64,000 nt of DNA, taken from sequence record PV544171.1; one strand, given 5' to 3'. Origin of the DNA: Enterococcus phage AllMyExes. The translations under genes were made by a program, and so were the position numbers. Below, piece by piece: positions 22,832-40,350 of the stretch (position 1 is the stretch's first letter; every line of letters starts with the position of its first letter). The notes beneath the pieces were generated by a model that saw only the letters and a program-made list of their open reading frames with translations, made no database searches and was not told the origin of the DNA.

Positions 22832-22841
22832 CAATAATGTT

Positions 22842-22871
22842 AACCACCCACATTGTATGGGTGGTTATTTT
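22842..22871 (+). terminator. Rho-independent terminator after the tail tube gene
   Basis: AACCACCCA...TGGGTGGTT followed by ATTTT. Confidence 0.6.
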
Positions 22872-22920
22872 ATGTTATAATATATTCATTGAATAAAAAA
22901 GCTTAAGGAGGACGTTATTA

Positions 22921-23067
22921 GTGAAATATCCATATTTAGTAGAATTGTATGCAAAACATGTAATTAGAGATGCAGGGTACATAGAAAATGTACCACCAGT
23001 TATTTATGAAGATGTTGTGAAACGTGTTGAAGAAATAAAAAGAGAAGAAAACTTAACAATAGATTAA
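22921..23067 (+). CDS. small ORF A (48 aa; MKYPYLVELYAKHVIRD...), paralogue of 40068..40214; not in the ORF track
   Basis: GTG start, 9 nt after the strong RBS TTAAGGAGG. Followed by a terminator at 23084-23118. Clear amino-acid similarity to small ORF B. Confidence 0.5.
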   Translation: MKYPYLVELYAKHVIRDAGYIENVPPVIYEDVVKRVEEIKREENLTID

Positions 23068-23083
23068 TTAGTATAAGTTTAAA

Positions 23084-23118
23084 TAGACCTAATTCAGATA
23101 TGGGTCTATTTTTTTTGC
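23084..23118 (+). terminator. Rho-independent terminator
   Basis: ATAGACC...GGGTCTAT followed by T8. Confidence 0.6.
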
Positions 23119-23144
23119 CACTATAAATACAAATAACTAGATAG

Positions 23145-23155
23145 TGTGGTATAAT
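23145..23155 (+). promoter_or_regulatory. extended -10 promoter TGTGGTATAAT
   Basis: Exact motif, followed 9 nt later by a TGCTATATTAA copy. Confidence 0.5.
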
Positions 23156-23163
23156 AAAGATAG

Positions 23164-23174
23164 TGCTATATTAA
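23164..23174 (+). promoter_or_regulatory. TGCTATATTAA motif, copy 4
   Basis: Exact 11-mer, 39 nt upstream of 23203. Confidence 0.45.
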
Positions 23175-23202
23175 TTTATGAGTAAACTAGGAGGAAATAA
23201 TA

Positions 23203-23676
23203 ATGACAGAAAATAATGAAAAGGTATTTACACCTACCCCAAATTTATCACGTGAGCAATTAATAGAAAAGTTGCAACGTGGAGAAAACTTGACGGATGA
23301 AGAAGTAAATATTTTGAAATATTACAATGATGCAGAAGAACGTAAACAGTTAGATAGAATTATCCCGGGTGTTAATGATGTATTTTCTAAGCATTACAAC
23401 TTAAAAGAATATGGTTTAGAATTTGATATTAAAATAAAAGCACCTAATATTATCGAAAACGGTAAAATTCAGGCAAGAAGAGAAGCCTATTTAGAAGGCA
23501 TGGGAATGGCAGTTAGCAACTTTATTTTCCAAAGTTACCAAATGTTAGCAACTATTCGAGTATGTGGGGTAGAGGTACCAGAAGTATTAGCTGATGATGA
23601 AAAAATTTATAATTTATATGTATTAGGAGTAATCGCAAAGGACTATGGTGAATGGCTAAACTCCTTTCGATACTAG
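23203..23676 (+). CDS. tail assembly chaperone candidate
   Basis: 157 aa and acidic. Position between tube and tape measure genes. Confidence 0.4.
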   Translation: MTENNEKVFTPTPNLSREQLIEKLQRGENLTDEEVNILKYYNDAEERKQLDRIIPGVNDVFSKHYNLKEYGLEFDIKIKAPNIIENGKIQARREAYLEGMGMAVSNFIFQSYQMLATIRVCGVEVPEVLADDEKIYNLYVLGVIAKDYGEWLNSFRY

Positions 23677-23743
23677 AGTTAAAGAACTAGGTGGAATAAA
23701 AGCCCTCGTTAGAAATAACTATAGTAGAAATCTATGGGCAATA

Positions 23744-24319
23744 ATGAAAAAATTCAAGGTACTACCGAGTGACCCTGCGTGGCAAAATCTCACAAGTGAC
23801 CAAGTAGAGTGGATTTTATATAACATGGAAAGAGACATAGAAGAGCAAGAACGACTAGCTAAAGGAATGCAGTTAGAAAGTGAGTTCCAAGACTATGACG
23901 ATTCATGGTATGATAAACCACATGATGAGTTCTCTCCAATTCGTGAAGGTGACGATGAGGAAGAAATTGCTCGTAAACTTAGTGAAATCACAAGTGAGGA
24001 AGACATGGCTAAACTTAAAGCTCGTTGGGAGGCAAGCCAAGAAGTTGATGCTATCCGTGCAGAAGGTGGAACAACAATTGAAGAAGATACGATTAACGAA
24101 CTTATTGCTAACAATGTTAAAAAAGCAATGGAAGAGGCTAGACGTATTGAGAAACATGGTGGAAACAAATGGCAAGAGAAATCATCAATTGAGTTAGAAG
24201 AGGAACGTAAGAACCTAGAGTTTAACTCACAGTTGAAACAAGGAGATATTCAGGAGGCTATCGATTTGTTTAACAAAGATGTCGAGCCAACATCATTAGA
24301 TGACGAATTTCAAATTTAA
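23744..24319 (+). CDS. tail assembly chaperone candidate (very acidic)
   Basis: 191 aa, immediately upstream of the tape measure gene. Confidence 0.4.
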   Translation: MKKFKVLPSDPAWQNLTSDQVEWILYNMERDIEEQERLAKGMQLESEFQDYDDSWYDKPHDEFSPIREGDDEEEIARKLSEITSEEDMAKLKARWEASQEVDAIRAEGGTTIEEDTINELIANNVKKAMEEARRIEKHGGNKWQEKSSIELEEERKNLEFNSQLKQGDIQEAIDLFNKDVEPTSLDDEFQI

Positions 24320-24357
24320 GGGTAGGGTATTCCCTGCCCTTTACTTGTAAAGGAAGT

Positions 24358-27300
24358 GTGGAAATGAGCAACAATTATCGTTTTTATGTTGAGGCAATGA
24401 CTGGGGATGCTGTTGCAAAACTTAATGAAATAGACAAGTTAATGGATAAAATTGATTCAAAGAGTGCAAAGGGCACCCAGAATTTTTTCCATACAAGTCA
24501 GAAAGACATTGATAAAGCTGTTGAGGAAATGCAAAAGCTTATCAAGGCAAAAAAAGAACTAGATAGAGCTTTTGACAATCAGAAGATAAATGCAGAAAGC
24601 ATGGGAGATATGACAGCATATAAACGTGCTGTATCGGATGCAGAAGAACTAACTAGAAGATTTAACAAGACACAAAAAGAATTTCAAAATCATGCTAGAA
24701 TGCAAGCTAACCCTAACTACATAAATGCTAGTACATTAAGGCAACAAAAAGCATTTCGTGATGAACTAACAGAGCAAGAGAGAGCAATAAGAAATATCTC
24801 TAGGGCACAACAGGAGCTAAACAGGGTGAACTCTAGGGTTAACCACCGTGCAAACCAAGCAAGTGCAACAGGAAGAATGACTTACAATCAGTCAGAGAGT
24901 ATGAAGCGTGACCTTAGACGTACTGGTGTATTTGAAAGCCTAGGCGCAGAAAATAAAAGCAGACAGCAAGAGCTACGAGAACGATATAAACAGAGACAAG
25001 AAGAACTAGCAGAGACTAGAAGTAATACAAATTTAGATAGACAAGTTCGTAAGAATAGGGAAACTAGTATTCAGGCTGAGATAAAAGAAATTGAGAAAGA
25101 AATTGAAGCTAGAAAACGCCTAGCAGACTCTATTAAAGAGACTGTAGAGAACTTAAAATCTAAGGAAGCTTCACTAAATGCATCTGATATAAAAGTAGAT
25201 GCTGATAGAAAGAGTATTCGTGGTGTTCTAGCTGAGCGTGCGCCTTCTATATCAATGGCTATGCTAGGAGGTACCGCCGCCGCCATAGGTGGTTTATACG
25301 CAAAAGGAGCAACTGCTAACGCAGGTATGCGTGATGCATCTATTTCTTTAGGACAACGTACAGGTACTAGTGATTTCCGTGCACTAAGAAAAAGTATGCA
25401 AGAGATGGGTATTGAGAAACAGTTAGGCTATAAAGGCGCTGACATGTTACAATTCCAAGAAGATGCATTAAGTAATATTGGGTTTACAAGTAAAGAGGAC
25501 TTAGCAGGAAGTACAAGAGCCTTAGCAGAGGGTTCAAGAGCAGTTCCAGTAGATAATGAGACTTTAAGTGACTTTATGAATAGTCAAATGAAGAGTGGAG
25601 CTATTAGTGGTAGAGACCAAATTAAGAATATTCAAGAAGGTTTCTTGGGTGCTATTCAGCGCTCAGGGATGGCAGGTCGTGAGAAAGAACAACTAGAAGC
25701 TCTTAAAACATTAAGTGAGCAAAGCTTTACTGGTCGTAACGGAAGTAATCAAGAGCTTAAAGAACAAATGGCAATGTTAACAATGCTAAACCAAACAGGT
25801 AAGCGTGCTGTCCAAGGTGAACAAGGAGCACAACTAATGTCAAGTTTATCTGCAGGTATTCAAGGTAGCGTATGGAATAATAAGGCATCTTTACTTTTAG
25901 GTAAAGGGACACAATTCCAAGGACTAGCAGGAATGTACGACTTAAAAGCTATGCAAGAACAAGGAGCAACGCCAGAGAACTTACAGAAAATTATTGGCAG
26001 TGTCCAACAATCAGTTCCCGGTGACGAAAAGTCTCAGAAGTATGCTTTCGGTAGTGCTTTACACGAACTATTCGGTACAGATGCTAAGAATGACCAAATA
26101 GATGCAATTTGGGAGGCTTATGCCAACGGTGGTTTAAGTCAGGATAACGTAGACAGAATAATGAATGAAAGCCAATCTACAGGAAAAGGCAAATACGACA
26201 AGAACATAGAAGACTATGCAAACTCTAAAGAAGGAACCGCTAACCGTTCAGAAGCTGTTACAGAGAAACAAGCTTCACAGATTAACGATATGGGGGACAT
26301 CTTAAGAGAAACTAACTCTAAATTAGGAGCACTTCCTCCTGCGTTATATGCGTTAGGAGCAGGCTTAGGAGCTATGGCTGTTTCACTAGCCACATCAGGC
26401 TCTATTGGTGGTTTATCTAGTTTAATCAAAAAAGGAACTCGTTCTACTTTTAGTACAGGTGGAGGAGTAACTGCAGGGGGCGGATTTTTAAAATCAGCTA
26501 AAGAAGCATTCTCTGCAGGTAAAGGCTCTGGCGGATGGTTCCAAGGTATTAAAAATGTAGGTAGTGTAGCTAAGGACTCCGCAATGGGTGTCGGAGCTAA
26601 GGCTGTTGAAGGAGCAAAAGGACTAAAAGGTGCCGGAATGGGCAGTAAGGTTCTTGGTGGCTTAGGAAAAGCAGGTAAATTCCTAGGCAAAGTTGCAACC
26701 CCTCTAGCGATAGGTTCCTCTCTACTAGATATTGCAACCGCAGATGATAAAACAAAGGCGGTAGGGGAGAGTGTTGGAGCTATTGGTGGAGGTATCGGAG
26801 GAGCTAAGTTAGGGGCAATGATTGGTACATTTATTGCACCCGGTCTTGGTACAGGTATCGGAGGAGCTATTGGTGGAGGTATCGGCGCCATAGGAGGTAC
26901 TCTAGCAGGTTCTAAACTAGGCGGTAAATTTGTTGATGGTGTTCGTAAATTCTTCGGAGGAGAAGAAGCTTATGCGGAAGAAGCAGACTTAACTGCAGGG
27001 CAAGATGTTGCTTCTGGTCAAGAGAGTAAATCAGGAGTACAAGAAGCCAGAGACACGGCTAACAAACGAGTCCTATCTGAGAAAACACGTGCAGAGAATA
27101 ACGCAGAAGAGTCCGCCAATCTCTCTATCTATTCTAAGTTATTAGATAGAGCCCAACGTATACTAAACCAAGCAAAAAATCAAAACGGTATATTCGGTAA
27201 CTCAGGGAGCTCTAAAGATTCTTCTGATGGAATGGGTTCAGATGCTTCTAGTAAAGACTTTGGAGGAGACTGGGAGAAAGCCATTAGGCAAGCATCTAAG

Positions 27301-28020
27301 AAAATGGGAGTAGATGTTTCTGACGATGAAATAGATACAATACTTAGATTGATTCAGGCGGAGTCTAGTGGTGACGAGAGTGCTGTTCAACAGATAATTG
27401 ATGAGAACAACTTCAATGGCAATGGCGGAGCTAAAGGTTTGTTACAGTATGTCCAAAGTACTTTTGATGCATACAAAGTAGACGGTCATGACAACATAAT
27501 GAGCGGGTATGACCAATTGCTAGCTTTCTTTAATAATAGTAATTGGAAAAATGACCTAAATTCTTGGGATAGCCGTTATCAAAACGGTGGTACAGGATGG
27601 GGTCCTACTGGTAATAAAACTAGAGCGATGGGCGGACACATAACTAGCCCAGAGTATGCGCTACTGGGAGAGGTAGCAGGTCAAGATGAGTATGTTATAA
27701 ATCCTAGTCAGCCAACAGCTCCACGTTTATTAGCAGAAGCTACTAGAAAAACAGCTCAAAACTTCCGATTAACAGGTAACGGTTCTGGTCATGATTGGGG
27801 AGCTTCAATTTCTAAAATAAATGCAACAGGAGGAGCTCAATCAGGTTCAGCTCCTACGATGACAAATACAAATGAGGTATCAGTTAATGTCACCATACAA
27901 GGTGGGGGAACAAGTGATAGTATAGCTAGAGAAATTGGTGATAAGTCAGCAGGAATTATCAGCAAAACACTCGATGCCACCTTCACAGATTTCTTCGCAA
28001 AAGAATACAGGAGAGTGTAG
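24358..28020 (+). CDS. tail tape measure protein with C-terminal SLT-like lytic transglycosylase domain
   Basis: 1220 aa: N-terminal coiled coil, central Gly-rich hydrophobic segment, C-terminal LIQAESSGDESAVQ...GAKGLLQYVQSTFDAY (SLT catalytic-Glu context). Confidence 0.7.
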   Translation: MEMSNNYRFYVEAMTGDAVAKLNEIDKLMDKIDSKSAKGTQNFFHTSQKDIDKAVEEMQKLIKAKKELDRAFDNQKINAESMGDMTAYKRAVSDAEELTRRFNKTQKEFQNHARMQANPNYINASTLRQQKAFRDELTEQERAIRNISRAQQELNRVNSRVNHRANQASATGRMTYNQSESMKRDLRRTGVFESLGAENKSRQQELRERYKQRQEELAETRSNTNLDRQVRKNRETSIQAEIKEIEKEIEARKRLADSIKETVENLKSKEASLNASDIKVDADRKSIRGVLAERAPSISMAMLGGTAAAIGGLYAKGATANAGMRDASISLGQRTGTSDFRALRKSMQEMGIEKQLGYKGADMLQFQEDALSNIGFTSKEDLAGSTRALAEGSRAVPVDNETLSDFMNSQMKSGAISGRDQIKNIQEGFLGAIQRSGMAGREKEQLEALKTLSEQSFTGRNGSNQELKEQMAMLTMLNQTGKRAVQGEQGAQLMSSLSAGIQGSVWNNKASLLLGKGTQFQGLAGMYDLKAMQEQGATPENLQKIIGSVQQSVPGDEKSQKYAFGSALHELFGTDAKNDQIDAIWEAYANGGLSQDNVDRIMNESQSTGKGKYDKNIEDYANSKEGTANRSEAVTEKQASQINDMGDILRETNSKLGALPPALYALGAGLGAMAVSLATSGSIGGLSSLIKKGTRSTFSTGGGVTAGGGFLKSAKEAFSAGKGSGGWFQGIKNVGSVAKDSAMGVGAKAVEGAKGLKGAGMGSKVLGGLGKAGKFLGKVATPLAIGSSLLDIATADDKTKAVGESVGAIGGGIGGAKLGAMIGTFIAPGLGTGIGGAIGGGIGAIGGTLAGSKLGGKFVDGVRKFFGGEEAYAEEADLTAGQDVASGQESKSGVQEARDTANKRVLSEKTRAENNAEESANLSIYSKLLDRAQRILNQAKNQNGIFGNSGSSKDSSDGMGSDASSKDFGGDWEKAIRQASKKMGVDVSDDEIDTILRLIQAESSGDESAVQQIIDENNFNGNGGAKGLLQYVQSTFDAYKVDGHDNIMSGYDQLLAFFNNSNWKNDLNSWDSRYQNGGTGWGPTGNKTRAMGGHITSPEYALLGEVAGQDEYVINPSQPTAPRLLAEATRKTAQNFRLTGNGSGHDWGASISKINATGGAQSGSAPTMTNTNEVSVNVTIQGGGTSDSIAREIGDKSAGIISKTLDATFTDFFAKEYRRV

Positions 28021-28058
28021 GGGCTTAATGTCTCTACTTTTCTCTAAGGAGGTTTATA

Positions 28059-31000
28059 ATGTCAGTAGAGTTAAGATACCCGAGATTTGATTTAACTTTT
28101 TTTACAGAGACAGACAACTACCATATAGTTTATGATGCAAAAGATGGGCTTACTGGACGTAATAACAATAACGGTGAAACAGAGAAGGTAAGCAATAATT
28201 TTATGGCAGAGTCTGTAATTAGTTTAACTACAAAAAATGCTTTAGAAGATGATAGTGCAGTCTTCTCCTTCGTATTAGCAGGGGATGTGTATTGGGATAG
28301 AGTGCTAAATGCTAATGATGCAGTTATTCTTAAAATAGACCCAGATACTTCCTCCACTAAAAAATCAGATAACCCTGTACTACTAGTTGGCTTAATATCT
28401 GAGGTCAGACTAGAGGGTGACTATGGAGAGAACTCTAAGATGTACAGGATAACAGGACAGTCTTTTGCAAAGGCATTAATGCAGTTCGACTTAGGTGTTA
28501 TTCAGGAAGTAAGTGTAGTTTTGACAGACTTAGGTTGGTTACCTGACGATGCACAAGAAGGTATAAAAATGTCTGGTAGTAGTGCAAGTCAAATAGCAGA
28601 AAGCCTAATGAAAAGATTTTTACAATATATGAAATTTAATTTTAATGGTCAAGGTATAGATAAGTTCTTAGAATGGGAACTAGATAGTTGGACAGAGGCG
28701 GAGAGACTAATAGATAGTACCCCTTACATAAACTATGAAGGTTCTTTAAAACAACTTATAGACGATGTAACCGCTAAACCGTTTAATGAATTGTATTTCG
28801 ATGCAACACCAGAGGGGAAATGCAGAATGATTATGCGTAGAACCCCATTTGATAAATCTGATTGGGAAAAATTACAAACCTACACAGTAACATCTGCAGA
28901 AGTAATATCCGAATCTGTAGCAGTTAACGATACAGAAGCTTACTCTATATTTAACATATCTATTAACAATTTGTATGGGACTGACTCTATGATGTTAGGT
29001 TCTAAACCACAAGTATTCCCTGATTTAGTTTCTAAATATGGTTATAAGAAACTAGAAGTACCTAATAGGTATTTAGAAGGGGCAATTATCGATAAGAGTA
29101 ACAGTGGAGATAAAGCTAACACAAAACCCGAAAGTGATAATGATAGTAAAGAGAGCGATGGCTCAACAGCTAAACAGATGTTTGACAGAGAGTACGCTCT
29201 TGTCTTAAACTATCTAAAAGGGTATCCTGTTGATGTGCTAAGAGTTAAAAAAAGTAATGTAAGAACATCAATAACACAAGTAGATAGACGTATAACAGAT
29301 AACGAAGCAGATAAAATTATAGACCACTATATTACAAATCAAGCATTAAGTAAGGAAGATTTTTCTAAATTTACAGGAATAACTGAGGAGAATATAGAAG
29401 AGGGTAACGGTAAGGTAGAGCCTACATATACCGCAGTTAGGGATTTCCTTAATGGGTTAGATAAAAACCTAGGAGTATCTAGCATAAAAGAGAAATTAAT
29501 GAACTACTTCAATTTGATACCTAACCAAGCCACGTCTATTGCTAGTGAATACAAAGCGCAAGGTAACTTAGGTAAACTAAAATATGAAGAAATAATGGAG
29601 AATAACCCAAGTGATAGCTCAACCGTCACTGGTTCAGACAAACGATTTGTTTCTGAGTTTACTAAAAGACTAGCAAATTGGTACTGTGAAAACGCTAATT
29701 TCTACAGTGGAGACATTGTAGTTAAAGGTGACCCTAAATATAGATTAGGTAACCGTTTGTTTGTTCAAGATGAGCAAAATGGTGAGTTGTGGGAATACTA
29801 CATAGAATCAGTAGAACACTCGTTTTCCTATACACAAGGGTATATCACTACTCTTGGGGTCACTAGAGGTTTACAAAATGGAGGAAACGATAGATTCACT
29901 CATTTATGGGGTAAATCTGAGGACTTCTCCGGAGGTATGCTAGGTGAGAAAACCTTACAAGCACTACTAGATGAACAAGCAGAGGCAAACAGCAAAAATG
30001 ATGGGGGCTCTGATAGTGGAGGTAGCTCAGGTAAAGAGTACACAGCAGGTGCAGGAACTCAGCTAGCGGTATTCCCATTAGACGTAATTAATGTAACTCA
30101 GGGAGAAAATGGCGGATACAGCCACATGGGAGCACTTGCAATAGACTTTTCAGATGGTACTCCTCATAAACCTTACTATGCACCATTTGACTGTGAATGT
30201 GTGTACACTGACTCTTACTCAGGGGTTGCATGGCAATCTCAAAAGCCTGTTAAATGTGTAGATGGTAGCGTTACTTACGTAACACTATTATGCGTACACG
30301 ACAACAACTGGGCAAGCAACAAAGTAGGGGATAAGAAAGCTAAAGGGGAAGTAATAGGGCACTCAGGGACTGCAGGACAAGCATCAGGAGACCATGCCCA
30401 CTTCGAGGTGTCTAAAGGTAAATGGCAAGGTTGGAGCACAAGCAGTGCGGGAGTTTACTTTATAAAAAATCCTTCTCATTTATACGATGTATTTTCTATA
30501 AAAAATAATGTAACTGGAAAAACAACTAAAATTATGAATGGTGGAGGGTACAATTGGCGTAGTATAGACTGGGACGATAAATCTGGTTCAGGTTCTGGAA
30601 AGAAAAAGACAGTTGGTGCTAGAGCCATGGCTACTCCATTCGGATTCCGTATGATGCGTAGCGCTCCGGTAGAACCAGAAGAGCCGAAAGTTGTTAAACA
30701 AGTAGAAACTAAAACAGTTGTTGAAAAGAAACCAAAAGTAGAAGTTAAAAAGCTCCCAATACTTTATGGGAATAACATTGCCACAGAAGCAACTAAATGG
30801 GGAAGAGCTCACTCGAAAACAGAGTCCACATTCCAATCTGCATTCAATTTTGGAGCTAATACAGATAAAGACCCATTTGAGGAAGACATTATAGCAACAG
30901 ACAGTGCAGGATTTGTTTGGTGGTGTTTCTACCATGCGGGCATATCACTATCTGGTGGAGCTAGAATGGTCACCACTCGTTCACTACTTTATGATAACCA

Positions 31001-31244
31001 ATTACAAACTATCTCTACTAGAGGTCAGAAGTCTTTAGAGTTATTTGATAAGATGAAGGTAGGAGATTTAGTTTGGTTTAACAGAGCTAGTCATGTAGGG
31101 ATATATTGTGGTGAGGGCAAGATGGTCTCTTGTAATGGAAAAGGTAACATGGATGAGTCCCCAAAAACAGGTATTGTTATTGTCGACATGTCTAAAGGTT
31201 ATTGGTGGAACGCTTTTGACGGAAATGTACGTAGATATAAATAA
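28059..31244 (+). CDS. tail-associated peptidoglycan hydrolase: M23 peptidase domain plus C-terminal NlpC/P60 (CHAP-like) domain
   Basis: M23 motifs HMGALAIDF...HDNNWAS...GHSGTAGQASGDHAHFEV lie at ~nt 30130-30430. NlpC/P60 Cys/His in GFVWWCFYHAG...SHVGIYCG lie at ~nt 30880-31210. Confidence 0.7.
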   Translation: MSVELRYPRFDLTFFTETDNYHIVYDAKDGLTGRNNNNGETEKVSNNFMAESVISLTTKNALEDDSAVFSFVLAGDVYWDRVLNANDAVILKIDPDTSSTKKSDNPVLLVGLISEVRLEGDYGENSKMYRITGQSFAKALMQFDLGVIQEVSVVLTDLGWLPDDAQEGIKMSGSSASQIAESLMKRFLQYMKFNFNGQGIDKFLEWELDSWTEAERLIDSTPYINYEGSLKQLIDDVTAKPFNELYFDATPEGKCRMIMRRTPFDKSDWEKLQTYTVTSAEVISESVAVNDTEAYSIFNISINNLYGTDSMMLGSKPQVFPDLVSKYGYKKLEVPNRYLEGAIIDKSNSGDKANTKPESDNDSKESDGSTAKQMFDREYALVLNYLKGYPVDVLRVKKSNVRTSITQVDRRITDNEADKIIDHYITNQALSKEDFSKFTGITEENIEEGNGKVEPTYTAVRDFLNGLDKNLGVSSIKEKLMNYFNLIPNQATSIASEYKAQGNLGKLKYEEIMENNPSDSSTVTGSDKRFVSEFTKRLANWYCENANFYSGDIVVKGDPKYRLGNRLFVQDEQNGELWEYYIESVEHSFSYTQGYITTLGVTRGLQNGGNDRFTHLWGKSEDFSGGMLGEKTLQALLDEQAEANSKNDGGSDSGGSSGKEYTAGAGTQLAVFPLDVINVTQGENGGYSHMGALAIDFSDGTPHKPYYAPFDCECVYTDSYSGVAWQSQKPVKCVDGSVTYVTLLCVHDNNWASNKVGDKKAKGEVIGHSGTAGQASGDHAHFEVSKGKWQGWSTSSAGVYFIKNPSHLYDVFSIKNNVTGKTTKIMNGGGYNWRSIDWDDKSGSGSGKKKTVGARAMATPFGFRMMRSAPVEPEEPKVVKQVETKTVVEKKPKVEVKKLPILYGNNIATEATKWGRAHSKTESTFQSAFNFGANTDKDPFEEDIIATDSAGFVWWCFYHAGISLSGGARMVTTRSLLYDNQLQTISTRGQKSLELFDKMKVGDLVWFNRASHVGIYCGEGKMVSCNGKGNMDESPKTGIVIVDMSKGYWWNAFDGNVRRYK

Positions 31245-31270
31245 CCCTATTTTTTAGGGTTATTTTTTTT
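31243..31270 (+). terminator. Rho-independent terminator
   Basis: AACCCTATTTTTTAGGGTT followed by T8. Confidence 0.6.
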
Positions 31271-31307
31271 GTATAGGTAGTTTTTAGTTATTGTGCTATA
31301 ATAGATA

Positions 31308-34300: not shown

Positions 34301-36806
34301 CAATGATAATTTACAAAATATTGGTGGGTACAACTATGTAGGGTTCTCTTCCGGAGACAATATGTTGCCTAGACTAATGATTAAAAACGTTGGTTACTAC
34401 ACATTAGGTTCGTCAACCACAGAGTTCATTGACAGCATGGTAGCTGTAAAAGGTGATGCAACGACCCAACCTTTCGATTATACTGTAGGTACTTCTGATA
34501 AAGAAATTGCTGGTGGCGGTTTAGCTGATTACCGTATGAAAGAAGTAAAAGAAGGTCAGTGGCTAACAGCTTCTGCAAATGTGCAGGTAATAGGTGGTGG
34601 CTCCGCTAGATTAGCTATCTACACTTTAGAAGGGGATAACTGGGTAGGCTCTAATAGTACACCTATACAAGTAAGTGATGGTTTGAAACGTGTTGTGGCT
34701 CAAAGAAAAGTAACAGGCTTAACAAAAGGTGTGCTAATACGTATTGAGTCAGCAGACACTAATGTTAAAGAGTTTCGATTTGGTAATGTTCAACTAGAAG
34801 TTGGTATTATCCCAACTCCTTGGAAAAAGTCTGATATAGATATTCAAGAGGACATAAACAATGTTGTTCAGAATATAAAAACATACACTGCTTGGGCTAA
34901 CGATTTACAGGGTCTTGATTTTACAAGAGAAAAGGTTGAAGGAAAAACTTACATGTATGTAGGTACCTCTATGAAAGATAGTGATAACTATTCAGATTAT
35001 ACATGGAGGCTAACTGATGAACATATAGAAGGTCAGATTAATGGTAAGGAAGGCGCATGGATTTATTCTCCAACAGCCCCTACTAATCCATCGCAAGGGC
35101 TTATATGGGTAGACTTGTCAAAAGTACCTAACCAACCTAAGCGTTGGGTAGATTCAGAAACTGGGTGGGTTGCATTAACACCAGAAGAGGTTAAAGATTT
35201 ACCTTGGGGTGAAGATGGCACAAACTTAGCTGACTGGGTAGCACAGGCAGAGCAGAGAATATCTTCCGATAGCATTATAAATACTGTACTAGGTTCTGAG
35301 GATTTTACTAGTGTGTTTGATACAAAGGCTAACACTACTGACCTAGATAACTTAGCTACCTATGAAGATTTAGACTCAATAAAAGAGGACTATAACCGAC
35401 TAATCAAAGAAGGCATAAACGGTATTGATTTTACCCCTTATGTAACTAACTCCGAACTACAACAGCTTAAAGACAGCTTTAACTTCTCTGTTCAACAAGC
35501 CGGAGGAGTTAACATGCTTAAAAACTCTTTAGGATTCTCTGGGTTAGACTTCTGGGATGGTACAGTAGGGAAGAACTTATTACCTAACTCTACTTGGAAT
35601 TTAGGTTTCGGTAGATGGGGTGGCGCTTCAATCGCTAGTTTTGAAATATTACCACCAGAAGACGACAAGCCTACAAGTCATATACTGGGTTCAATAGGTT
35701 CTCGTTCTTCTACTAAAGAAATAGGTAATAGACCCCACCCATTAAAAGTTAACTCTGGTGAAACGTATACAATAAGCTTTGATTATAAAGAAGAGGCATT
35801 GGCTTATGATAAGGACAGACCTATCCTTGTTGTTAGAAACTACCCTGATAAGGACACAGACCAATGGATGGAGTACTCAATAGAAGGTTGGGCAGTAATG
35901 GCTAACGGAAGCACTACTGACTTAACTGTTTGGAGACGTTTTACAAAAACATTTACAATAGGTACTAGTGGCTACTTAGATATTTTACCTAAAACTATAG
36001 TAGAGTCATGGACACACAGGTCTTTTTGGAGAGAGCTAAAAATAGAGGAAGGGTCACAAGCTACTACTTGGGTACCTAACAAGGAAGACGGGGCGTTTAC
36101 CGGTGGTATTGTTGAAACTACCCAAACAGAAGAACTAGCTAACCTCGGGTTCGGTTCGGGATTTGTTAGTTCTAAAAGACCTAGCTCTTCATTAACACAG
36201 TCTGTAGAACTACCTGAAATAGGTGCTAACCTTGAGTATTCACTATCTTTTTATATGAAGGTAACTACAGACAATCCTGTAGCCGACTTTAAATGTGGTA
36301 TTCGGGTTTATGAGGGGGATACTCTAACTTATACATTAGGCATAGAAGATGCAACACAGCCAATACCACTAGGGTTCCAACAATACAAGCTTGTGTTCAC
36401 TCCCACAAGTACCTCTACTAAAATAGAAATGTTTGTAGAGAATGGACAAGAGGCATCTGTTATTATATCAGGTATTATGTATAATATCGGGAATATACCT
36501 CTTAAATGGCAACCATATCCAAGTGAGATATACAATACGAATGTTAAGATTGATATTAATGGGGTAACTGTTAAAAACAATCAAACAGATGGGTACACAA
36601 TGATTACCCCCCAAGAGTTCTCAGGGTATTCTCGTATTGATGGTAACATAGAACGTATTTTCACTTTAAATGGGCAGGTAACAGAAGTTAAAATGCTAAA
36701 GGCTGAAAAACGTATAACTATGGAACCAGTATCTGTGTTTGCTATGAATACAGTAACAGATACAAAAAGAATTAGAGGTTGGGCATTTGTACCATCATTT
36801 GAATAA
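31308..36806 (+). CDS. very large baseplate/fibre structural protein with three ~100-aa tandem repeats and several carbohydrate-binding-like modules
   Basis: 1832 aa. Repeats DA(D/E)(K/N)AN..IADMSSDN.LTPSEK...EYP...YTAKY..LE..V.P lie at ~nt 32530-32830, 32930-33240 and 33925-34250. Modules end in LEVGIIPTPW, IEEGSQATTW and NIPLKWQPYP. Confidence 0.55.
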   Translation: MRTHDERMNKLVKRRFQAGLGSEIKRVYKEGQQINTLLLAQVIQVNYKYNTVDLLALQHKEVFQNSYANEGRFSARLPMEFGGRNIVGQPYGQVNPIAVGTVVLVGFINSDKDMPIVISVYNNNDVSKQLSRTQFSNSDPKDLELIGDMHQKFSLYPSLTYDSVDGEGGRVVTFSGKSFIAFDTKEVANSSTTDAGYGTKYEDLETSYYNNGDLIEPMKGRAPNVLFKHQGVLDDDGKPDLHDLLIHINPDGTYRTSMMNKEEDWRTLFEMTPDGRVKLRKQDSINIDGGIEISELGINNEGFVYLRNGDMDLEVRKDGIYSQGKLFTADVDLSDVYDKLNGLSIQIKETNGQLEIIANGVEEQNGKISELSTEITIVAGKVESKVTKTEVQDMIDSSFVDMSDAIKKAQEDADKANKVIADMSSDNRLTPSEKIDLLKEWDIIKNEYPSYLEQAETYEVDSKDYTAKYNSLELFVTPILADMESTSSVDGATLRKTFNSYYTARIALLNSISKKLKDGITEAMKKASQASLDATQAMADASQAKIDADNANKLISDIASDNKLTPSEKYQLKKEWDVIVKEYPTTIAQAEKYAVDTAEYTAKYKALELFVEPLFKDMDETSIVDGERLRATFSDYYASKIALLKEVTDSAKTELDAYGNKISVMETNITQTSEAITLLATRVQTVEDGVQSNKAQIEIQAEQISQKVTASEVKGIVDDSINNLTLGGTNLFVIKTQTAGLLNENDGTVGTAVDNSVVSDYIKVNQKTPYIATLYGNTGTNMIITDWYDKNRTFISGEAVADSGDFSKKYVSPENAVYARVSYKKANSVNIKFEAGTKATDYSPSWEDIKGDQTALEEYIKKVEEQAKKAQQDAENAKNDAENANNAIADMSNDNMLAPNEKKQILLQWEQIKTEYPINLDQATKFGVSSQQYTTAYNALDEYLKPILADMTTTSVVVGSTLRNTFNNYYDKRTTLLNRISDVAKNVADKAQETADTINDNLQNIGGYNYVGFSSGDNMLPRLMIKNVGYYTLGSSTTEFIDSMVAVKGDATTQPFDYTVGTSDKEIAGGGLADYRMKEVKEGQWLTASANVQVIGGGSARLAIYTLEGDNWVGSNSTPIQVSDGLKRVVAQRKVTGLTKGVLIRIESADTNVKEFRFGNVQLEVGIIPTPWKKSDIDIQEDINNVVQNIKTYTAWANDLQGLDFTREKVEGKTYMYVGTSMKDSDNYSDYTWRLTDEHIEGQINGKEGAWIYSPTAPTNPSQGLIWVDLSKVPNQPKRWVDSETGWVALTPEEVKDLPWGEDGTNLADWVAQAEQRISSDSIINTVLGSEDFTSVFDTKANTTDLDNLATYEDLDSIKEDYNRLIKEGINGIDFTPYVTNSELQQLKDSFNFSVQQAGGVNMLKNSLGFSGLDFWDGTVGKNLLPNSTWNLGFGRWGGASIASFEILPPEDDKPTSHILGSIGSRSSTKEIGNRPHPLKVNSGETYTISFDYKEEALAYDKDRPILVVRNYPDKDTDQWMEYSIEGWAVMANGSTTDLTVWRRFTKTFTIGTSGYLDILPKTIVESWTHRSFWRELKIEEGSQATTWVPNKEDGAFTGGIVETTQTEELANLGFGSGFVSSKRPSSSLTQSVELPEIGANLEYSLSFYMKVTTDNPVADFKCGIRVYEGDTLTYTLGIEDATQPIPLGFQQYKLVFTPTSTSTKIEMFVENGQEASVIISGIMYNIGNIPLKWQPYPSEIYNTNVKIDINGVTVKNNQTDGYTMITPQEFSGYSRIDGNIERIFTLNGQVTEVKMLKAEKRITMEPVSVFAMNTVTDTKRIRGWAFVPSFE

Positions 36807-36821
36807 ATAATTCAACTTTTT

Positions 36822-36860
36822 AACCGAAAACTTCACTTACAAGTCGTTTTCGGTTAATTT
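36822..36860 (+). terminator. Rho-independent terminator
   Basis: AACCGAAAAC...GTTTTCGGTT (10-bp stem) followed by AATTTGTGTT. Confidence 0.55.
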
Positions 36861-36905
36861 GTGTTATACTATATAGAGAAGGACACGAAAGGACGATGAG
36901 ACTAT

Positions 36906-39317
36906 ATGGCTTTAAACGGAACAAAGTATACAGCCTTTGCCCGACATAGATTAGTTTTAGAGTGGCGCGCAAATCAAAACATTGCAGGGAACTACTCAAC
37001 AATCAGCGTATGGCTATACCTACAATCTATGGATAAATGGGGTAGACTTGATGCTCCCGCTATCGGTGATGCCAAAGTTACCGTAGAAGGAACTACACAG
37101 ACAGAAAAAGCTTCCTCTATGTTAAATGCTTTCCAAAAGAAACTATTACTAGCTAAAGAGTGGAGAGTTAACCATAATAATGACGGTTCTAAAAGAATAA
37201 CTATTGGAGGTAGCTACTTTGTAAACGTTACTTTTACTGATAACGGTGTACCAACATATTATGGTACGATAACTATACCTAATTTTTCAGTAGACCTAAA
37301 TAGAATACCTAGAAGAAGTTCATTAAACCCTGTCCCTACATTAAATTTACCGGGGAACTTACCAATAACAATAAATAGGCAGAGCTCCACATTCAAACAT
37401 AATCTAACTGCTTGGGTGGCTAACAGAGATAACCCCACATTAAACAATGATGACCATTGGACGTACTTGACAAACCTTAATGATGTAGGCACTAGTGGAG
37501 CGTTTAGTTTTACAGTAGCAAATAACAAAACTATTTTTACTGCATTAAACAAAAGAACTAGTTGGCAAGGCAAGGTTAAACTCTGGACTATAGGGTTAGA
37601 TGATGTAGTTAGTCAGGAAAGAACATACAAGATTGTCCCCCCAATGAATGCACAAGCATCGGGAGGTAAGATAACCTTAAATGTGGGAGAGAAAATCAAT
37701 GTATCACTAAGTAACTATCGGTCTGATGCAAACTTTACTTATGATGGGGTATTTAACATTAGTGGGCTCAACATACCTATTGCTACAAATTCAGCAGGGA
37801 ACACAATGTCGTATACACTAACTCAAACAGATGTAGACAATATATTGAAGAAAATACCAAATGCGGATTCCTCGTGGGGTCAAGTAACTGTAACAAGTAA
37901 GTATAGTGGAGTACAATACAGGACTCCATGGACAGGACAGAGAATAGATATAACTATACCTAAAAACAAGTATGTACCAAGCATTAATGGTACCCCTACT
38001 TATGAAGATACAAGTAATGTCTCTGTCGGGCTTACAGGTAACAATCAGGTAGCCCTTCAAGGTAAGTCTAATATCAAAGTGATTATCCCTGCTAACTTTG
38101 CAACGGCTAATGGTTACTCTACTTTGAAAACAATTGATGTGTCTTTAGGTGGTACATCAAAAACAATCAACTATTCAAATGCAGAAACAGTTGTAGAACT
38201 AGGAGCACCTGCTAACCATACATCAGATACATTAATAGTCACAGTAACTGACAGTCGTGGGTTTAAGTCTAACTGGACAAAACATGTAGACATTTATCCC
38301 TATGAAAATCCAAATATGGACTTTACAGTCGCACGTAGAAATAACTTTGAGACAACGACAGATATTAATGTTAATAGTACATGGTCTCCTATCACTATAG
38401 GTGGTGTAAACAAAAATGCTATCCAATCAGTAACCTACGCAACAAAAGTAGCAGGTGTTGGTACTTATGGAGCAGAAACTGCTTTAAATTTTACAGCTAA
38501 TGGTAGTATGGTAACAGTAAAAAATACACCAATAGAATTAGATAATACCAATACATACGAAGTTAGGTTGAGTGTAACTGATAAGTTTAGTACGTTTACT
38601 AGAACAGCTACTGTTAAACCGGGTAACCCTATCATGTTTATTGATGCCGATAATCGAAGTCTGTTTTTAGGTAATGCCTTTGTTGACAATAACAATAATG
38701 AGCTAAGAGGCTTATTAGAGATAGAAAGAGATAAGTGGCAGGAGAATGGTTTAGTAGGAATATCCTTAAACAACAGTGATATATCAGCAGTCAATGGCAT
38801 ATGGTTCTCGACAGATACATCAAATAACGGAGGTGAAGGAGTTCACTTTATTAAATCAGGTAAACCAAGAAACTCCTTAAAGTGGGAGGACTATGACTAC
38901 GTTTATATGAGGGACAATGGATTCTATGTTAACAATGACTCTAATCCTATATTTGAAGTTTCTGACACTGGTACGATGACGTTTCCTACTAAACAGCTTT
39001 GGAAAGGGGCTGCCTATTTAAATGAGAAACAAGAAGTTTTACCTAGCAAAAAATTAACAGAGTGCCGAAACGGATGGGTTTTGACCTTCTCCGCATATGA
39101 GTCAGGTGCAGGGCAACCTTGGGATATAACTCAGGTATTTATTCACAAGTCTGTACTAGACCAGTTTAACACAAGAGGGTTTAGGGCTATAATAGGTCAT
39201 GGAACTACGATAACATTTAAATATATGTATATAACTGACGGTCGTATTGGTGGTAATGTTAATAATGGGACAGGAGTTAACAATGGCATTGTTATAAGGG
39301 AGGTATCAGAATGGTAG
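36906..39317 (+). CDS. tail fibre / receptor-binding protein candidate
   Basis: 803 aa, rich in Thr/Asn/Gly (beta-rich). Position in the fibre block. Confidence 0.5.
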   Translation: MALNGTKYTAFARHRLVLEWRANQNIAGNYSTISVWLYLQSMDKWGRLDAPAIGDAKVTVEGTTQTEKASSMLNAFQKKLLLAKEWRVNHNNDGSKRITIGGSYFVNVTFTDNGVPTYYGTITIPNFSVDLNRIPRRSSLNPVPTLNLPGNLPITINRQSSTFKHNLTAWVANRDNPTLNNDDHWTYLTNLNDVGTSGAFSFTVANNKTIFTALNKRTSWQGKVKLWTIGLDDVVSQERTYKIVPPMNAQASGGKITLNVGEKINVSLSNYRSDANFTYDGVFNISGLNIPIATNSAGNTMSYTLTQTDVDNILKKIPNADSSWGQVTVTSKYSGVQYRTPWTGQRIDITIPKNKYVPSINGTPTYEDTSNVSVGLTGNNQVALQGKSNIKVIIPANFATANGYSTLKTIDVSLGGTSKTINYSNAETVVELGAPANHTSDTLIVTVTDSRGFKSNWTKHVDIYPYENPNMDFTVARRNNFETTTDINVNSTWSPITIGGVNKNAIQSVTYATKVAGVGTYGAETALNFTANGSMVTVKNTPIELDNTNTYEVRLSVTDKFSTFTRTATVKPGNPIMFIDADNRSLFLGNAFVDNNNNELRGLLEIERDKWQENGLVGISLNNSDISAVNGIWFSTDTSNNGGEGVHFIKSGKPRNSLKWEDYDYVYMRDNGFYVNNDSNPIFEVSDTGTMTFPTKQLWKGAAYLNEKQEVLPSKKLTECRNGWVLTFSAYESGAGQPWDITQVFIHKSVLDQFNTRGFRAIIGHGTTITFKYMYITDGRIGGNVNNGTGVNNGIVIREVSEW

Positions 39318-40036
39318 AAGAAACTCAAAAAATATTTGTAACACTAGATGATAAAGATTTTGTTAGTAACTGGGGAACGTCACTCAATAGTGATGAACCT
39401 GTCTATGAAGTAGATTTGCCAATGGATTCTCCATTCTTTTCACATTACTATTCAAATTGTTTTCAGTATGTAGATGGAGAGCTAGTCTTAAGTGAAGAAA
39501 AGTTATTAAAAGTAGAGCTACTAGCAGTAGCCAGTAAGTTTAAAAGGGACTGTGAAGAGACCTACATATTGCAAAAAGTTCCTTATACAATATCAGGCAC
39601 TACCTACTTATTTGATGTTATTAGCGATGATGAGTTTATTAATAAAATAACTCTACTAGACAATAAAATTCAAGATTATGTTGGGATAACTGCTTATGCT
39701 ACATCAGATGGTTCTCAATCGATACTTAAATTTGATAAGTCCCAATATACTACTATGACTAGATATATTAAAAAAGTAGTTGAGTCTAGGGAAAATAAAT
39801 TAAATAATAAGTTGCTTCCTATGATTGAAAATGCTAAGTCTGTAGAAGAAGCCAAAGAAATTTCTTGGAGTTCTGTGCCCGATGAGTTGCTACCGGAGCA
39901 AGAGAACAATGAACCTCAAGACGAGCAAAGTATAGATAGTTTAATTAAAGAAAATAAAGAATTAAGACAAAAAGTAGAATTTAATGAGCTAGCCTTAATG
40001 GATGCAATAAACATGTTCTCGGAAATGAACAAGTAA
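39311..40036 (+). CDS. fibre-associated protein (assembly chaperone candidate)
   Basis: 241 aa, overlapping the stop of the fibre gene. Confidence 0.4.
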   Translation: MVEETQKIFVTLDDKDFVSNWGTSLNSDEPVYEVDLPMDSPFFSHYYSNCFQYVDGELVLSEEKLLKVELLAVASKFKRDCEETYILQKVPYTISGTTYLFDVISDDEFINKITLLDNKIQDYVGITAYATSDGSQSILKFDKSQYTTMTRYIKKVVESRENKLNNKLLPMIENAKSVEEAKEISWSSVPDELLPEQENNEPQDEQSIDSLIKENKELRQKVEFNELALMDAINMFSEMNK

Positions 40037-40067
40037 GCTACTATTAATTAAAGGAGGTGATATTTCT

Positions 40068-40214
40068 ATGTACCCATACTTATCAATGTTATATGCATCT
40101 TATGTAATCAAAGACCCTGAGAACTATCCTTTAGAGAAGGTTCCGGCACTAATTAGAGAAGATGTGGAGAAAATCGTGGAAGAGATGGCAAAAAAGAACG
40201 AAAAACAAGGATAG
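40068..40214 (+). CDS. small ORF B (48 aa; MYPYLSMLYASYVIKD...), paralogue of 22921..23067; not in the ORF track
   Basis: ATG start with strong RBS AAAGGAGGTG. Followed by a terminator at 40279-40306. Confidence 0.5.
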   Translation: MYPYLSMLYASYVIKDPENYPLEKVPALIREDVEKIVEEMAKKNEKQG

Positions 40215-40278
40215 TTAATTTAGTAATTGGAGTAACAATAGGTTTAATCATAGGGCTACTAATTTAAACTAATATAAA

Positions 40279-40306
40279 TGAGGGTAGTTTGTGCTACCCT
40301 CTTTTT
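40279..40306 (+). terminator. Rho-independent terminator
   Basis: GAGGGTAG-TTTGTG-CTACCCTC followed by T6. Confidence 0.65.
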
Positions 40307-40350
40307 TATACTATATTGTACTATATTAAGGAACGAAAGGAGCGGTTACT

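What the first reader, a model, noticed from the sequence alone, without database searches (positions are those of the whole stretch)
22921..40214. Two paralogous 48-aa ORFs missing from the ORF track, each with a strong RBS and its own terminator
22921..23067 (MKYPYLVELYAKHVIRDAGYIENVPPVIYEDVVKRVEEIKREENLTID) and 40068..40214 (MYPYLSMLYASYVIKDPENYPLEKVPALIREDVEKIVEEMAKKNEKQG) share YPYL..LYA..VI.D...Y......P..I.EDV...VEE. Both follow a major structural gene (tube; fibre) and precede a clean terminator. Duplicated small proteins embedded in the tail module may be assembly factors or small regulatory or host-interacting proteins.
Basis: seen in the sequence. Interest (0 to 1): 0.55.

Follow-up and report, generated by a model that had tools for sequence, protein, structure and literature searches.

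The report
Paired small phage genes, one frameshifted
Two tiny related genes in the tail region of an Enterococcus phage are real and already annotated, and the one after the fibre gene appears to use a conserved ribosomal slip to make both a soluble 48-residue protein and a 66-residue membrane-anchored version.

Summary
The window is an EF24C-like Enterococcus myophage (Kochikohdavirus). Both 48-codon ORFs exist as described and are paralogues (50% identity, E 5e-10). They are already annotated as hypothetical proteins (EF24C ORF026 and ORF034). Both fall in PHROG 1382 and are remote relatives of the CD1375-like small phage proteins.

The main new result concerns copy B (40068-40214). It carries an in-phase slippery heptamer, A_AAA_AAG (40190-40196). 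From there the -1 frame stays open for 23 codons and encodes ERKTR plus a glycine-zipper transmembrane helix, with a stop at 40265-40267.

I retrieved relatives using only the N-terminal domain. Of 68 distinct loci, 58 have the same arrangement: an in-phase A_AAA_AAN, then a basic linker and TM helix in the -1 frame. This holds despite heavy nucleotide divergence and across myophages and siphoviral prophages.

Copy A (22921-23067) is a Brockvirinae-specific duplicate. It has lost both the slip site and the helix. It sits between two terminators and has its own sigma-A-like promoter.

Recoding is inferred from comparison only, and no stimulatory RNA element was found. Function is unknown. The leading guess is a tail-fibre-associated chaperone with a membrane-tethered isoform; a lysis-accessory role is nearly as likely.

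The parts
39311..40036 (+). Upstream partner gene (241 aa, 'tail fiber protein' family). Its C-terminal helix motif LIKENKELRQKVEFNELALMDAINMF recurs in the gene preceding every family member examined.
   Evidence: phrog_1348 E 1e-41. C-terminal motif compared across 13 loci.
40052..40060 (+). Shine-Dalgarno of copy B (AGGAGGTGA), 7 nt before the ATG
   Evidence: Read from the sequence.
40068..40214 (+). Copy B, zero-frame product of 48 aa (soluble form); equals EF24C ORF034
   Evidence: phrog_1382 E 1e-15. 100% identical protein in 35 phage records.
40190..40196 (+). In-phase slippery heptamer A_AAA_AAG (codons GCA AAA AAG) at the conserved C-terminal Lys-Lys
   Evidence: An in-phase A_AAA_AAN sits at the homologous place in 58 of 68 distinct loci.
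40196..40267 (+). -1-frame continuation ERKTRIVNLVIGVTIGLIIGLLI plus TAA. It is a basic linker followed by a GxxxGxxxG transmembrane helix. The predicted frameshift product is 66 aa.
   Evidence: KD15 is 2.95. There is no in-frame ATG, GTG or TTG. AF2 models it as one continuous helix, residues 27-65. A different allele with the same properties occurs in vB_EfaH_149.
40280..40307 (+). Intrinsic terminator closing the fibre transcription unit, after both the zero-frame and -1-frame stops
40318..40329 (+). Recurrent late-promoter-like motif GTACTATATTAA ahead of the tube-initiator/baseplate operon
   Evidence: 11 matches against 2.2 expected. PF23980 hit on 40351-41040.
22841..22867 (+). Terminator of the tail-tube gene, upstream of copy A
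22873..22881 (+). Extended -10 promoter-like box TGTTATAAT, 40 nt before copy A. EF24C-type genomes have a nuclease-ORF insertion that destroys it.
   Evidence: Consensus match only, not shown to be functional.
22905..22911 (+). Shine-Dalgarno of copy A (AAGGAGG)
   Evidence: Read from the sequence.
22921..23067 (+). Copy A, 48 aa, GTG start; equals EF24C ORF026. Soluble-only paralogue with no slip site and no open hydrophobic frame downstream.
   Evidence: phrog_1382 E 1e-13. DNA homology to B runs just past the stop codon and then decays.
23081..23116 (+). Hairpin plus U-run terminator of copy A
   Evidence: -11.2 kcal/mol, z -3.06.

Best explanation
**What the two ORFs are.** Both are real genes of one small-protein family: phrog_1382, a distant branch of the CD1375-like proteins. 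Members lie next to tail-fibre or receptor-binding genes in phages of Firmicutes. The domain is a ~45-residue helical hairpin.

**Copy B is the ancestral gene.** It is transcribed at the end of the late fibre operon. Most ribosomes stop at 40212-14 and make the soluble 48-aa protein. A minority slip -1 on A_AAA_AAG (40190-96). They then read ERKTR plus a glycine-zipper transmembrane helix up to 40265-67. The result is a 66-aa tail-anchored protein, with the N-domain in the cytoplasm by the positive-inside rule.

**Copy A is a Brockvirinae-specific duplicate.** It kept only the soluble domain. It became a stand-alone mini-gene with its own sigma-A-type promoter and terminator, between the tube and tail-chaperone genes.

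**What is shown.**
- Homology and paralogy of the two copies.
- The in-phase heptamer.
- An open, hydrophobic -1 frame that is conserved across the family.
- Loss of the heptamer and the helix in copy A.
- The promoter-like and terminator sequences.

**What is inferred.**
- That slippage actually occurs.
- That it is ribosomal rather than transcriptional.
- That its efficiency is low.
- The membrane topology.
- The function. My working guess is a chaperone or assembly factor for the adjacent fibre-associated protein, with one isoform tethered to the membrane.
For: **Sequence and family placement.** establish the ORFs and their similarity. hhalign against the CD1375 type gives 95% probability, E 3e-8.

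**Frame analysis of individual loci.** The same arrangement appears in every one of these:
- Schiekvirus EFDG1: A_AAA_AAA, then RTSTRVVFLTLGVSIGLVAGLAIGFFL*.
- EF5: RRASRVILFGLGMLVGFLLALLIF*.
- A siphoviral prophage (L009).
- L012.
- L011, which has the -1-frame TM helix but only an A_AAG tetramer rather than a full heptamer.

**Blind survey.** Relatives were retrieved with N-domain patterns only.
- 58 of 68 distinct loci have an in-phase A_AAA_AAN followed by a 21-44-codon -1 ORF with KD15 of 1.7-3.0.
- The other two frames score at most about 1.5.
- The codon before the run always ends in A (GCA, ACA, GTA, TCA, GAA).

**The -1 peptides are homologous.** They align as a basic linker plus G..(I/V)G...G. 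Codon position 3 varies most and position 2 least (0.49 against 0.33).

**Null expectation.** Only 0.13% of codon positions in this window's genes are followed by a -1 run of at least 20 codons that is this hydrophobic. The median -1 run after the 25 other in-phase heptamers is 5 codons.

**Allele replacement.** vB_EfaH_149 has an identical N-domain, but 23 of 65 downstream nucleotides differ. The -1 frame still reads KKERKVKLTNLGIGLILGVILGFIF*.

**Internal control.** Copy A lacks the heptamer, and its downstream region has decayed.

**No conserved independent start codon** lies in the -1 frame of the extension; the one in-frame ATG seen (EF5) sits mid-helix.

**Recurrent pairing.** A soluble-only member alongside a frameshifted member recurs in Lactobacillus phage LBR48 as gp03 and gp04.

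**Structure.** The AF2 model has pLDDT 85: helix 3-15, a loop, then helix 27-65.
Against: - There is no direct evidence of translation or of the 66-aa product.
- No conserved downstream RNA structure or upstream SD-like stimulator was found. Efficiency may therefore be only the basal level of the heptamer.
- In-phase A_AAA_AAN heptamers are common in this AT-rich genome, 25 in 18,181 codons, so the heptamer alone proves nothing.
- Many surveyed loci are related Enterococcus prophages. The count of 58 overstates the number of independent lineages, which is roughly 8-10.
- L008 has the helix in the zero frame beyond a stop codon.
- L011 has only an A_AAG tetramer.
- The only in-frame fused versions (P0003, P0009) come from contigs with about 1x coverage and are probably homopolymer errors.
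- vB_EfeBG-143 carries an amber codon at position 24 of copy B, so the gene may be dispensable in the laboratory.
- The chaperone function rests on position and on an analogy from the literature, not on any test.
Confidence: 0.7

Rival explanations
1. Same two products, but made by transcriptional slippage. RNA polymerase adds one A in the A6-A9 run, and the edited mRNA encodes the 66-aa form directly.
For: - Every heptamer is a homopolymeric A run of 6-9.
- L012 has A9, a length known to slip.
- A one-A insertion gives exactly the fused frame seen in P0003: A7 against A6.
- No ribosomal stimulator was found.
- Ebola GP shows that this route can switch between soluble and transmembrane forms (PMC5009743).
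Against: - Most runs are only A6. From general knowledge, that is short for efficient bacterial RNAP slippage.
- The run is always in the X_XXY_YYZ phase that ribosomal slippage needs.
- L011 keeps an intact -1 helix with only A_AAG, which cannot support polymerase slippage.
Confidence: 0.18
2. No recoding. The -1 hydrophobic ORF is the fossil of an ancestral in-frame C-terminal helix cut off by an old frameshift mutation. Only the 48-aa protein is made.
For: - There is no expression evidence.
- No stimulator was found.
- L008 shows that further frame disruption can occur.
- Copy A shows that a soluble-only form is viable.
Against: - A fossil should decay as it did in copy A.
- Instead the -1 ORF stays open, basic and then hydrophobic, and alignable across genera and virus morphotypes.
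- It survives wholesale allele replacement.
- The A at the synonymous third position before the run is invariant.
Confidence: 0.1
3. The family, and especially its membrane isoform, belongs to the lysis apparatus rather than to fibre assembly. It would be a holin accessory or regulator, similar in architecture to tail-anchored XhlA.
For: - In siphoviral prophages and EF5/VRE9-like myophages the gene lies directly before membrane proteins or a holin and the endolysin.
- In L025 the -1 frame runs without a stop into the holin ORF.
- A glycine-zipper helix suits oligomerisation within the membrane.
Against: - In Kochikohdavirus and Schiekvirus the gene is followed by a terminator and the baseplate operon, not by lysis genes.
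- The invariant neighbour is the upstream fibre-associated gene.
- There are no holin or XhlA profile hits.
Confidence: 0.3
4. The ORFs are chance open frames in AT-rich intergenic DNA and are not genes.
For: They are very short, and copy A starts with GTG.
Against: - Strong SD sequences precede both.
- The family is significant by HMM.
- Copy B's protein is conserved at 100% in 35 genomes.
- Copy A is retained, with diverged sequence but the same pattern, in phage Revolver.
Confidence: 0.02

Closest known systems
CD1375 family / CD1375-like small phage proteins (NCBIfam NF040910, Pfam PF23792; within phrog_1382)
   Same: - Same PHROG.
- Profile-profile match of 95%, E 3e-8, over the Y..LI....T.E.VP..IR..V core.
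- Same position after tail-fibre or RBP genes.
- Often present as two copies per genome (L007; FP01 table).
   Different: - The window proteins are longer: 48 aa against 30-38.
- They do not reach the NF040910 or PF23792 thresholds.
- The short CD1375-type members surveyed have no slip site and no -1 helix.
Short presumed chaperone genes downstream of the RBP in C. difficile diffocin and phi027 prophage (rtbN/rtbO, ptsN/ptsO)
   Same: - Two short genes directly after the receptor-binding gene.
- Including ptsN and ptsO raised Avidocin activity (PMC4453579).
- They are called 'tail fiber chaperones' in the diffocin cryoEM paper (PMC10996793).
   Different: - That CD1375 equals rtbN is my inference from gene numbering (rtbM = CD1374). 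It was not checked by sequence.
- No frameshift or membrane form is reported there.
- Chaperone activity was presumed rather than dissected.
-1 programmed ribosomal frameshifting on A_AAA_AAG (E. coli dnaX, IS elements; phage tail assembly chaperone G/GT)
   Same: - Identical slippery heptamer, in phase.
- Two products share an N-terminus and differ at the C-terminus.
- The gene lies in a phage tail module.
   Different: - No stimulatory hairpin or internal SD was detected.
- The transframe part is a 23-residue membrane anchor, not a domain that binds the tape-measure protein.
- This case is not listed in the 2016 recoding review.
Ebola virus GP and arterivirus nsp2TF: recoding that switches between soluble and transmembrane forms
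   Same: An A-run or slip site decides whether the product is soluble or carries a transmembrane segment (PMC5009743).
   Different: - Those are eukaryotic RNA viruses and unrelated proteins.
- Ebola uses polymerase stuttering.
- The resemblance is an analogy only.
XkdX / XhlA of the PBSX-type fibre-to-lysis junction
   Same: - Small genes lying between the fibre genes and the holin.
- XhlA-like neighbours are also tail-anchored.
   Different: - No sequence match to the XkdX or XhlA profiles.
- An XkdX-like ORF occurs separately in L076.

Membership tests
phrog_1382 (PHROGs, unknown function) | Significant match to the family HMM over most of its length | tested here: met
   Copy A scores E 1.2e-13 (residues 1-45 of 48). 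Copy B scores E 1.1e-15 (residues 1-48).
CD1375 family (NCBIfam NF040910) | Score at or above the curated cut-off of 22.5 bits | tested here: not met
   No hit even at E <= 10 for either window protein. The L007 relatives score 47 and 57 bits.
CD1375-like (Pfam PF23792) | Score at or above the gathering threshold of 27 bits | tested here: not met
   No hit for the window proteins. Prophage relatives reach only 13-15 bits.
CD1375-like superfamily (homology) | Profile-profile similarity across the conserved core | tested here: met
   hhalign of A2 against A8: probability 95.1%, E 3.1e-8, 32 columns.
CD1375-like superfamily (context) | Gene lies immediately downstream of tail-fibre or RBP-associated genes | tested here: met
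   Met for copy B, which follows the phrog_1348 gene. Not met for copy A, which lies between the tube and chaperone genes.
-1 programmed ribosomal frameshift | X_XXY_YYZ heptamer in phase with the zero frame | tested here: met
   GCA_AAA_AAG at 40188-96.
-1 programmed ribosomal frameshift | -1 ORF open and under selection across relatives | tested here: met
   Found in 58 of 68 distinct loci, with alignable peptides. Preserved through allele replacement.
-1 programmed ribosomal frameshift | Stimulatory element: a downstream hairpin or pseudoknot, or an upstream SD-like sequence | tested here: not met
   Single-sequence fold gives z 0.09. RNAalifold on 8 lineages predicts no pairs. This feature is usual but not obligatory.
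-1 programmed ribosomal frameshift | Both protein products detected, and slippage shown to be ribosomal | not testable with these tools
   Needs a western blot or mass spectrometry, a reporter assay and cDNA sequencing.
Tail-anchored membrane protein | Single C-terminal hydrophobic helix preceded by basic residues, with no signal peptide | tested here: met
   KD15 is 2.95, and the linker is ERKTR. AF2 predicts a helix over residues 27-65. Membrane insertion was not tested.
Holin | Match to a holin family, and adjacency to the endolysin | tested here: not met
   No holin hits in Pfam or PHROGs. In the window the next genes are the tube initiator and baseplate.
XkdX family (PF09693) | Match to the Pfam model | tested here: not met
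   No hit at E <= 10.

The most novel reading that the evidence does not exclude
A family-wide programmed -1 frameshift sets a fixed, low ratio of membrane-tethered to soluble forms of a tiny fibre-associated protein. The tethered form would recruit the adjacent fibre-module protein, or the fibre itself, to the inner face of the membrane. That could serve as an assembly platform, or it could couple completion of fibre assembly to the neighbouring holin system. It would also explain why in-frame fusions are essentially never seen, and why genomes so often carry one soluble-only copy together with one frameshifting copy.
Probability: 0.15. Interest if true: 0.75.

Novelty: new variant of a known kind. 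Interest (0 to 1): 0.58.

Why it matters
The ORFs themselves are ordinary. They are annotated hypothetical proteins of a catalogued family.

What matters is the conserved recoding signal. If it is confirmed, it would do three things:
- It would add a new, widespread case of -1 frameshifting in phages of Gram-positive bacteria, beyond the tail-chaperone G/GT paradigm.
- It would show that a common 'hypothetical' gene at the junction of the fibre and lysis modules makes two products with different cellular locations.
- It would correct the annotation of this gene in many Enterococcus and Lactobacillus phages and prophages, including EF24C-like and EFDG1-like phages of the kind used therapeutically.

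It also gives a concrete experimental handle on the unknown function of CD1375-like proteins: slip-dead mutants, in-frame fusions and helix-less mutants.

Tried and rejected
- **Pfam and NCBIfam on the window proteins:** nothing meaningful. PCP_red and LacI hits fall below threshold and were rejected.
- **PDB sequence search and Foldseek against the PDB:** only chance-level hits.
- **BFVD fold search:** only other small uncharacterised phage proteins.
- **Word-indexed protein search:** found near-identical sequences only.
- **First IMG/VR scan with the Brockvirinae profile:** one locus.
- **Family-wide alignment A3:** too divergent for locus searching. The narrower alignment A4 worked.
- **In-frame fused proteins P0003 and P0009:** first taken as natural fusions. 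I downgraded them after seeing contig coverage of 1.6x and 1.1x.
- **Search for a frameshift stimulator:** negative.
- **Independent initiation of the helix peptide:** rejected, because no conserved start codon lies in the -1 frame.
- **Phage-encoded tRNA-Lys:** there are no tRNA genes in the window.
- **Literature searches for a prior description of this frameshift:** nothing relevant found. A search for virion proteomics was unproductive.
- **The long -1 run after the heptamer at 24119:** an artefact of an overlapping spurious ORF in my own script.


Full report
**Identity of the window.** Megablast places the region in Enterococcus phages of Herelleviridae, Brockvirinae, Kochikohdavirus (EF24C-like). 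The best match is phage 53 at 99.6%. The local gene order is:
- sheath (20639-22348)
- tube (22409-22831)
- copy A
- two tail-chaperone-region genes
- tape-measure/lysin and other large tail proteins
- an 803-aa tail protein
- a 241-aa 'tail fiber protein' (39311-40036; phrog_1348)
- copy B
- tube initiator (PF23980) and the baseplate genes

**Checking the observation.** Copy A starts with GTG. BLASTP between them gives 50% identity, E 5e-10. Both match phrog_1382. A six-frame HMM scan finds only these two copies in the window.
- Both have strong Shine-Dalgarno sequences.
- Copy B is followed by a clear terminator at 40280-40301.
- Copy A is followed by an 11-bp hairpin plus a U-run.
- Neither gene is unannotated. 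In RefSeq EF24C they are ORF026 and ORF034, both 'hypothetical protein'.

**The two copies are not equivalent.**
- tblastn with copy B finds two places in every Kochikohdavirus genome. It finds one place in Schiekvirus (EFDG1-like) and in EF5/VRE9-like myophages, always after the fibre-module gene.
- tblastn with copy A finds only Kochikohdavirus and the divergent phage Revolver. Copy A is therefore the derived duplicate.
- Copy A sits between the tube gene's own terminator (22841-67) and its own terminator.
- It is preceded by an extended -10 box, TGTTATAAT. In Revolver the equivalent is TTGACT-17-TAAAAT.
- Copy B has no promoter of its own and ends the fibre transcription unit. The recurrent late-promoter-like motif GTRCTATATTAA follows at 40318.
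- Copy B's protein is identical in 35 records. Copy A varies, with roughly 13 synonymous to 12 non-synonymous differences among six genomes, but keeps its pattern in Revolver.

**The main new result: a -1 extension on copy B.** Five codons before its stop, copy B contains GCA AAA AAG. This is the classical slippery heptamer A_AAA_AAG, in phase (40190-96). From there the -1 frame reads ERKTRIVNLVIGVTIGLIIGLLI and stops at 40265-67, ahead of the terminator. That sequence is a basic linker followed by a GxxxGxxxG transmembrane helix. The -1 frame contains no ATG, GTG or TTG.

**The same arrangement in other lineages.** It appears in EFDG1, EF5, a siphoviral prophage (L009), L012 and L011. To test it without bias, I retrieved relatives from IMG/VR and GTDB using patterns from the N-terminal domain only. 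I then analysed all frames.
- Of 68 distinct loci, 58 have an in-phase A_AAA_AAN followed by a -1 ORF of 21-44 codons that is basic and then strongly hydrophobic (KD15 1.7-3.0).
- The ten others are seven short CD1375-type members (30-40 aa) and the 44-aa L074, none with an extension, plus L011 and L008.
- L011 has the helix in the -1 frame but only an A_AAG slip site.
- L008 has the helix displaced into the zero frame beyond the stop codon, presumably by a second indel.

**Evidence that the -1 frame is under selection.**
- The -1 peptides align with one another. Their codon-position variation (0.41, 0.33, 0.49) fits coding in that frame.
- In this window only 0.13% of codon positions are followed by a comparable -1 run.
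- The median -1 run after the 25 other in-phase A_AAA_AAN heptamers is 5 codons.
- Phage vB_EfaH_149 has an N-domain identical to the window's but a different downstream allele, with 23 of 65 nucleotides changed. Its -1 frame still encodes KKERKVKLTNLGIGLILGVILGFIF*.
- Copy A is a built-in control. DNA homology to copy B extends just past the stop codon, but the heptamer is gone and no frame is open or hydrophobic.

**Caveats on the recoding claim.**
- There is no expression evidence of any kind.
- No conserved stimulatory RNA structure or SD-like element was found. Efficiency may be low, or the event may be transcriptional slippage on the A-run.
- A6 is short for polymerase slippage, and L011 argues for a ribosomal event. 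L012 has A9, so I cannot exclude the alternative.
- The two in-frame 'fused' database proteins (P0003, P0009) come from contigs with about 1x coverage. They are most likely homopolymer errors.
- The absence of in-frame fusions among well-covered genomes suggests that the out-of-frame arrangement, and hence a set ratio of the two forms, is what is maintained.
- Many surveyed loci are related Enterococcus prophages. Roughly 8-10 lineages are independent. These include Kochikohdavirus (two alleles), Schiekvirus, EF5-like phages, L011, several prophage groups, L009, L012 and the Lactobacillus LBR48/L063-L076 group.
- One viable phage, vB_EfeBG-143, has an amber codon in copy B.

**What the protein is.**
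- An exhaustive profile search found only 16 representative relatives, of 41-68 aa.
- High-GC relatives (L007) reach the NCBIfam 'CD1375 family' threshold and also match phrog_1382.
- hhalign links the window's subgroup to that type at 95% probability. The window proteins themselves fail the NF040910 and PF23792 thresholds.
- AF2 predicts a helical hairpin continuing into the transmembrane helix, at pLDDT 85.
- Fold searches return only other small uncharacterised phage proteins.

**Genomic context.**
- The upstream gene varies in its N-terminal part. It always ends in a related helix, L..EN.EL....E.ALL.L.DM.L.
- The downstream genes are often XhlA-like proteins, a holin and the lysin in siphophages and EF5-like phages. 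In the window they are baseplate genes.
- The constant partner is therefore the fibre-module gene.
- A soluble-only copy alongside a frameshifting copy recurs as a tandem pair in Lactobacillus phage LBR48 (gp03 and gp04) and at L075.

**Relation to the literature.**
- Short genes downstream of receptor-binding genes in C. difficile diffocin and phi027 were presumed to be chaperones, and including them improved activity (PMC4453579; PMC10996793).
- That CD1375 is one of them (rtbN) is my inference from gene numbering.
- The 2016 review of recoding lists no such phage case. It does describe switching between soluble and transmembrane forms in Ebola GP and arterivirus nsp2TF.
- I found no paper describing this frameshift.

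**Verdict.** As stated, though, it describes known, annotated members of a catalogued family. The added value is the conserved -1 recoding signal and membrane-anchor extension of copy B, and their loss in copy A. On comparative evidence I rate this about 70-75% likely to be real. Function remains inferred. A fibre-associated chaperone with a membrane-tethered isoform is the leading idea, and a lysis-accessory role is nearly as plausible.

Noticed in passing
window 22868-22905; L001 2775-3692 (EF24C ORF025): The tube-to-copy-A spacer carries an insertion polymorphism. EF24C, EFLK1, ECP3, MDA2 and others have an 837-1100-bp free-standing nuclease ORF there, annotated as HNH or 'intron encoded nuclease'. 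It has its own promoter and is inserted at TTATGTTA|, which destroys the TGTTATAAT box. The window lacks it. The ORF has no Pfam hit.
   Followed up: partly
window 1842, 9406, 11195, 13437, 15269, 19625, 23163, 40318, 45836 (+ others): The motif GTRCTATATTAA recurs 11 times against 2.2 expected, mostly just upstream of structural operons. It is conserved after the copy-B terminator in EFDG1 and L011. It is probably the phage's late-promoter element.
   Followed up: partly
L092 201-272 (phage vB_EfeBG-143): Copy B carries an amber codon at position 24 (GAG TAG in place of GAG AAG) and is not annotated there. Either the gene is dispensable for growth in the laboratory or this is a sequencing error.
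   Followed up: no
L025 2501-3160: In one Enterococcus prophage the -1 extension has no stop codon. It continues for 178 codons, in frame, into the downstream holin-like ORF. A frameshifted ribosome would therefore make a fusion with the holin.
   Followed up: no
L008 2551-2760: This is the one exception among loci that carry the heptamer. The -1 frame reads ARRNSEI.. with no helix, and the helix (LIIGAIGFAVGCFFF) lies in the zero frame beyond the TAA stop. That implies a second indel, decay or an assembly error.
   Followed up: partly
L096 1501-2048 (Lactococcus phage LW81): A family member with no slip site overlaps (TAATGA) the start of a separate 135-aa gene that begins with a transmembrane helix. 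This is a different way of pairing the soluble domain with a membrane segment.
   Followed up: no
window 39311-40036 and the upstream genes in L004, L008, L009, L013-L026, L061, L063, L073, L085: The gene preceding every family member ends in a related C-terminal helix (…EN.EL….E.ALL.L.DM.L…), even though the N-terminal parts and PHROG assignments are unrelated. It is a candidate binding partner.
   Followed up: partly
window 23744-24319: This acidic 191-aa protein is annotated 'RNA polymerase (beta subunit)' in many related GenBank and RefSeq records. It has no Pfam hit and sits in the tail-chaperone position, so the name looks like a propagated misannotation.
   Followed up: no
L006 (Logan SRR13235910 contig): This is a mosaic copy B. 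The N-terminal two-thirds are identical to Kochikohdavirus. The 3' end, the -1 helix and the downstream region are of the Schiekvirus type. The recombination junction lies inside this tiny gene.
   Followed up: no
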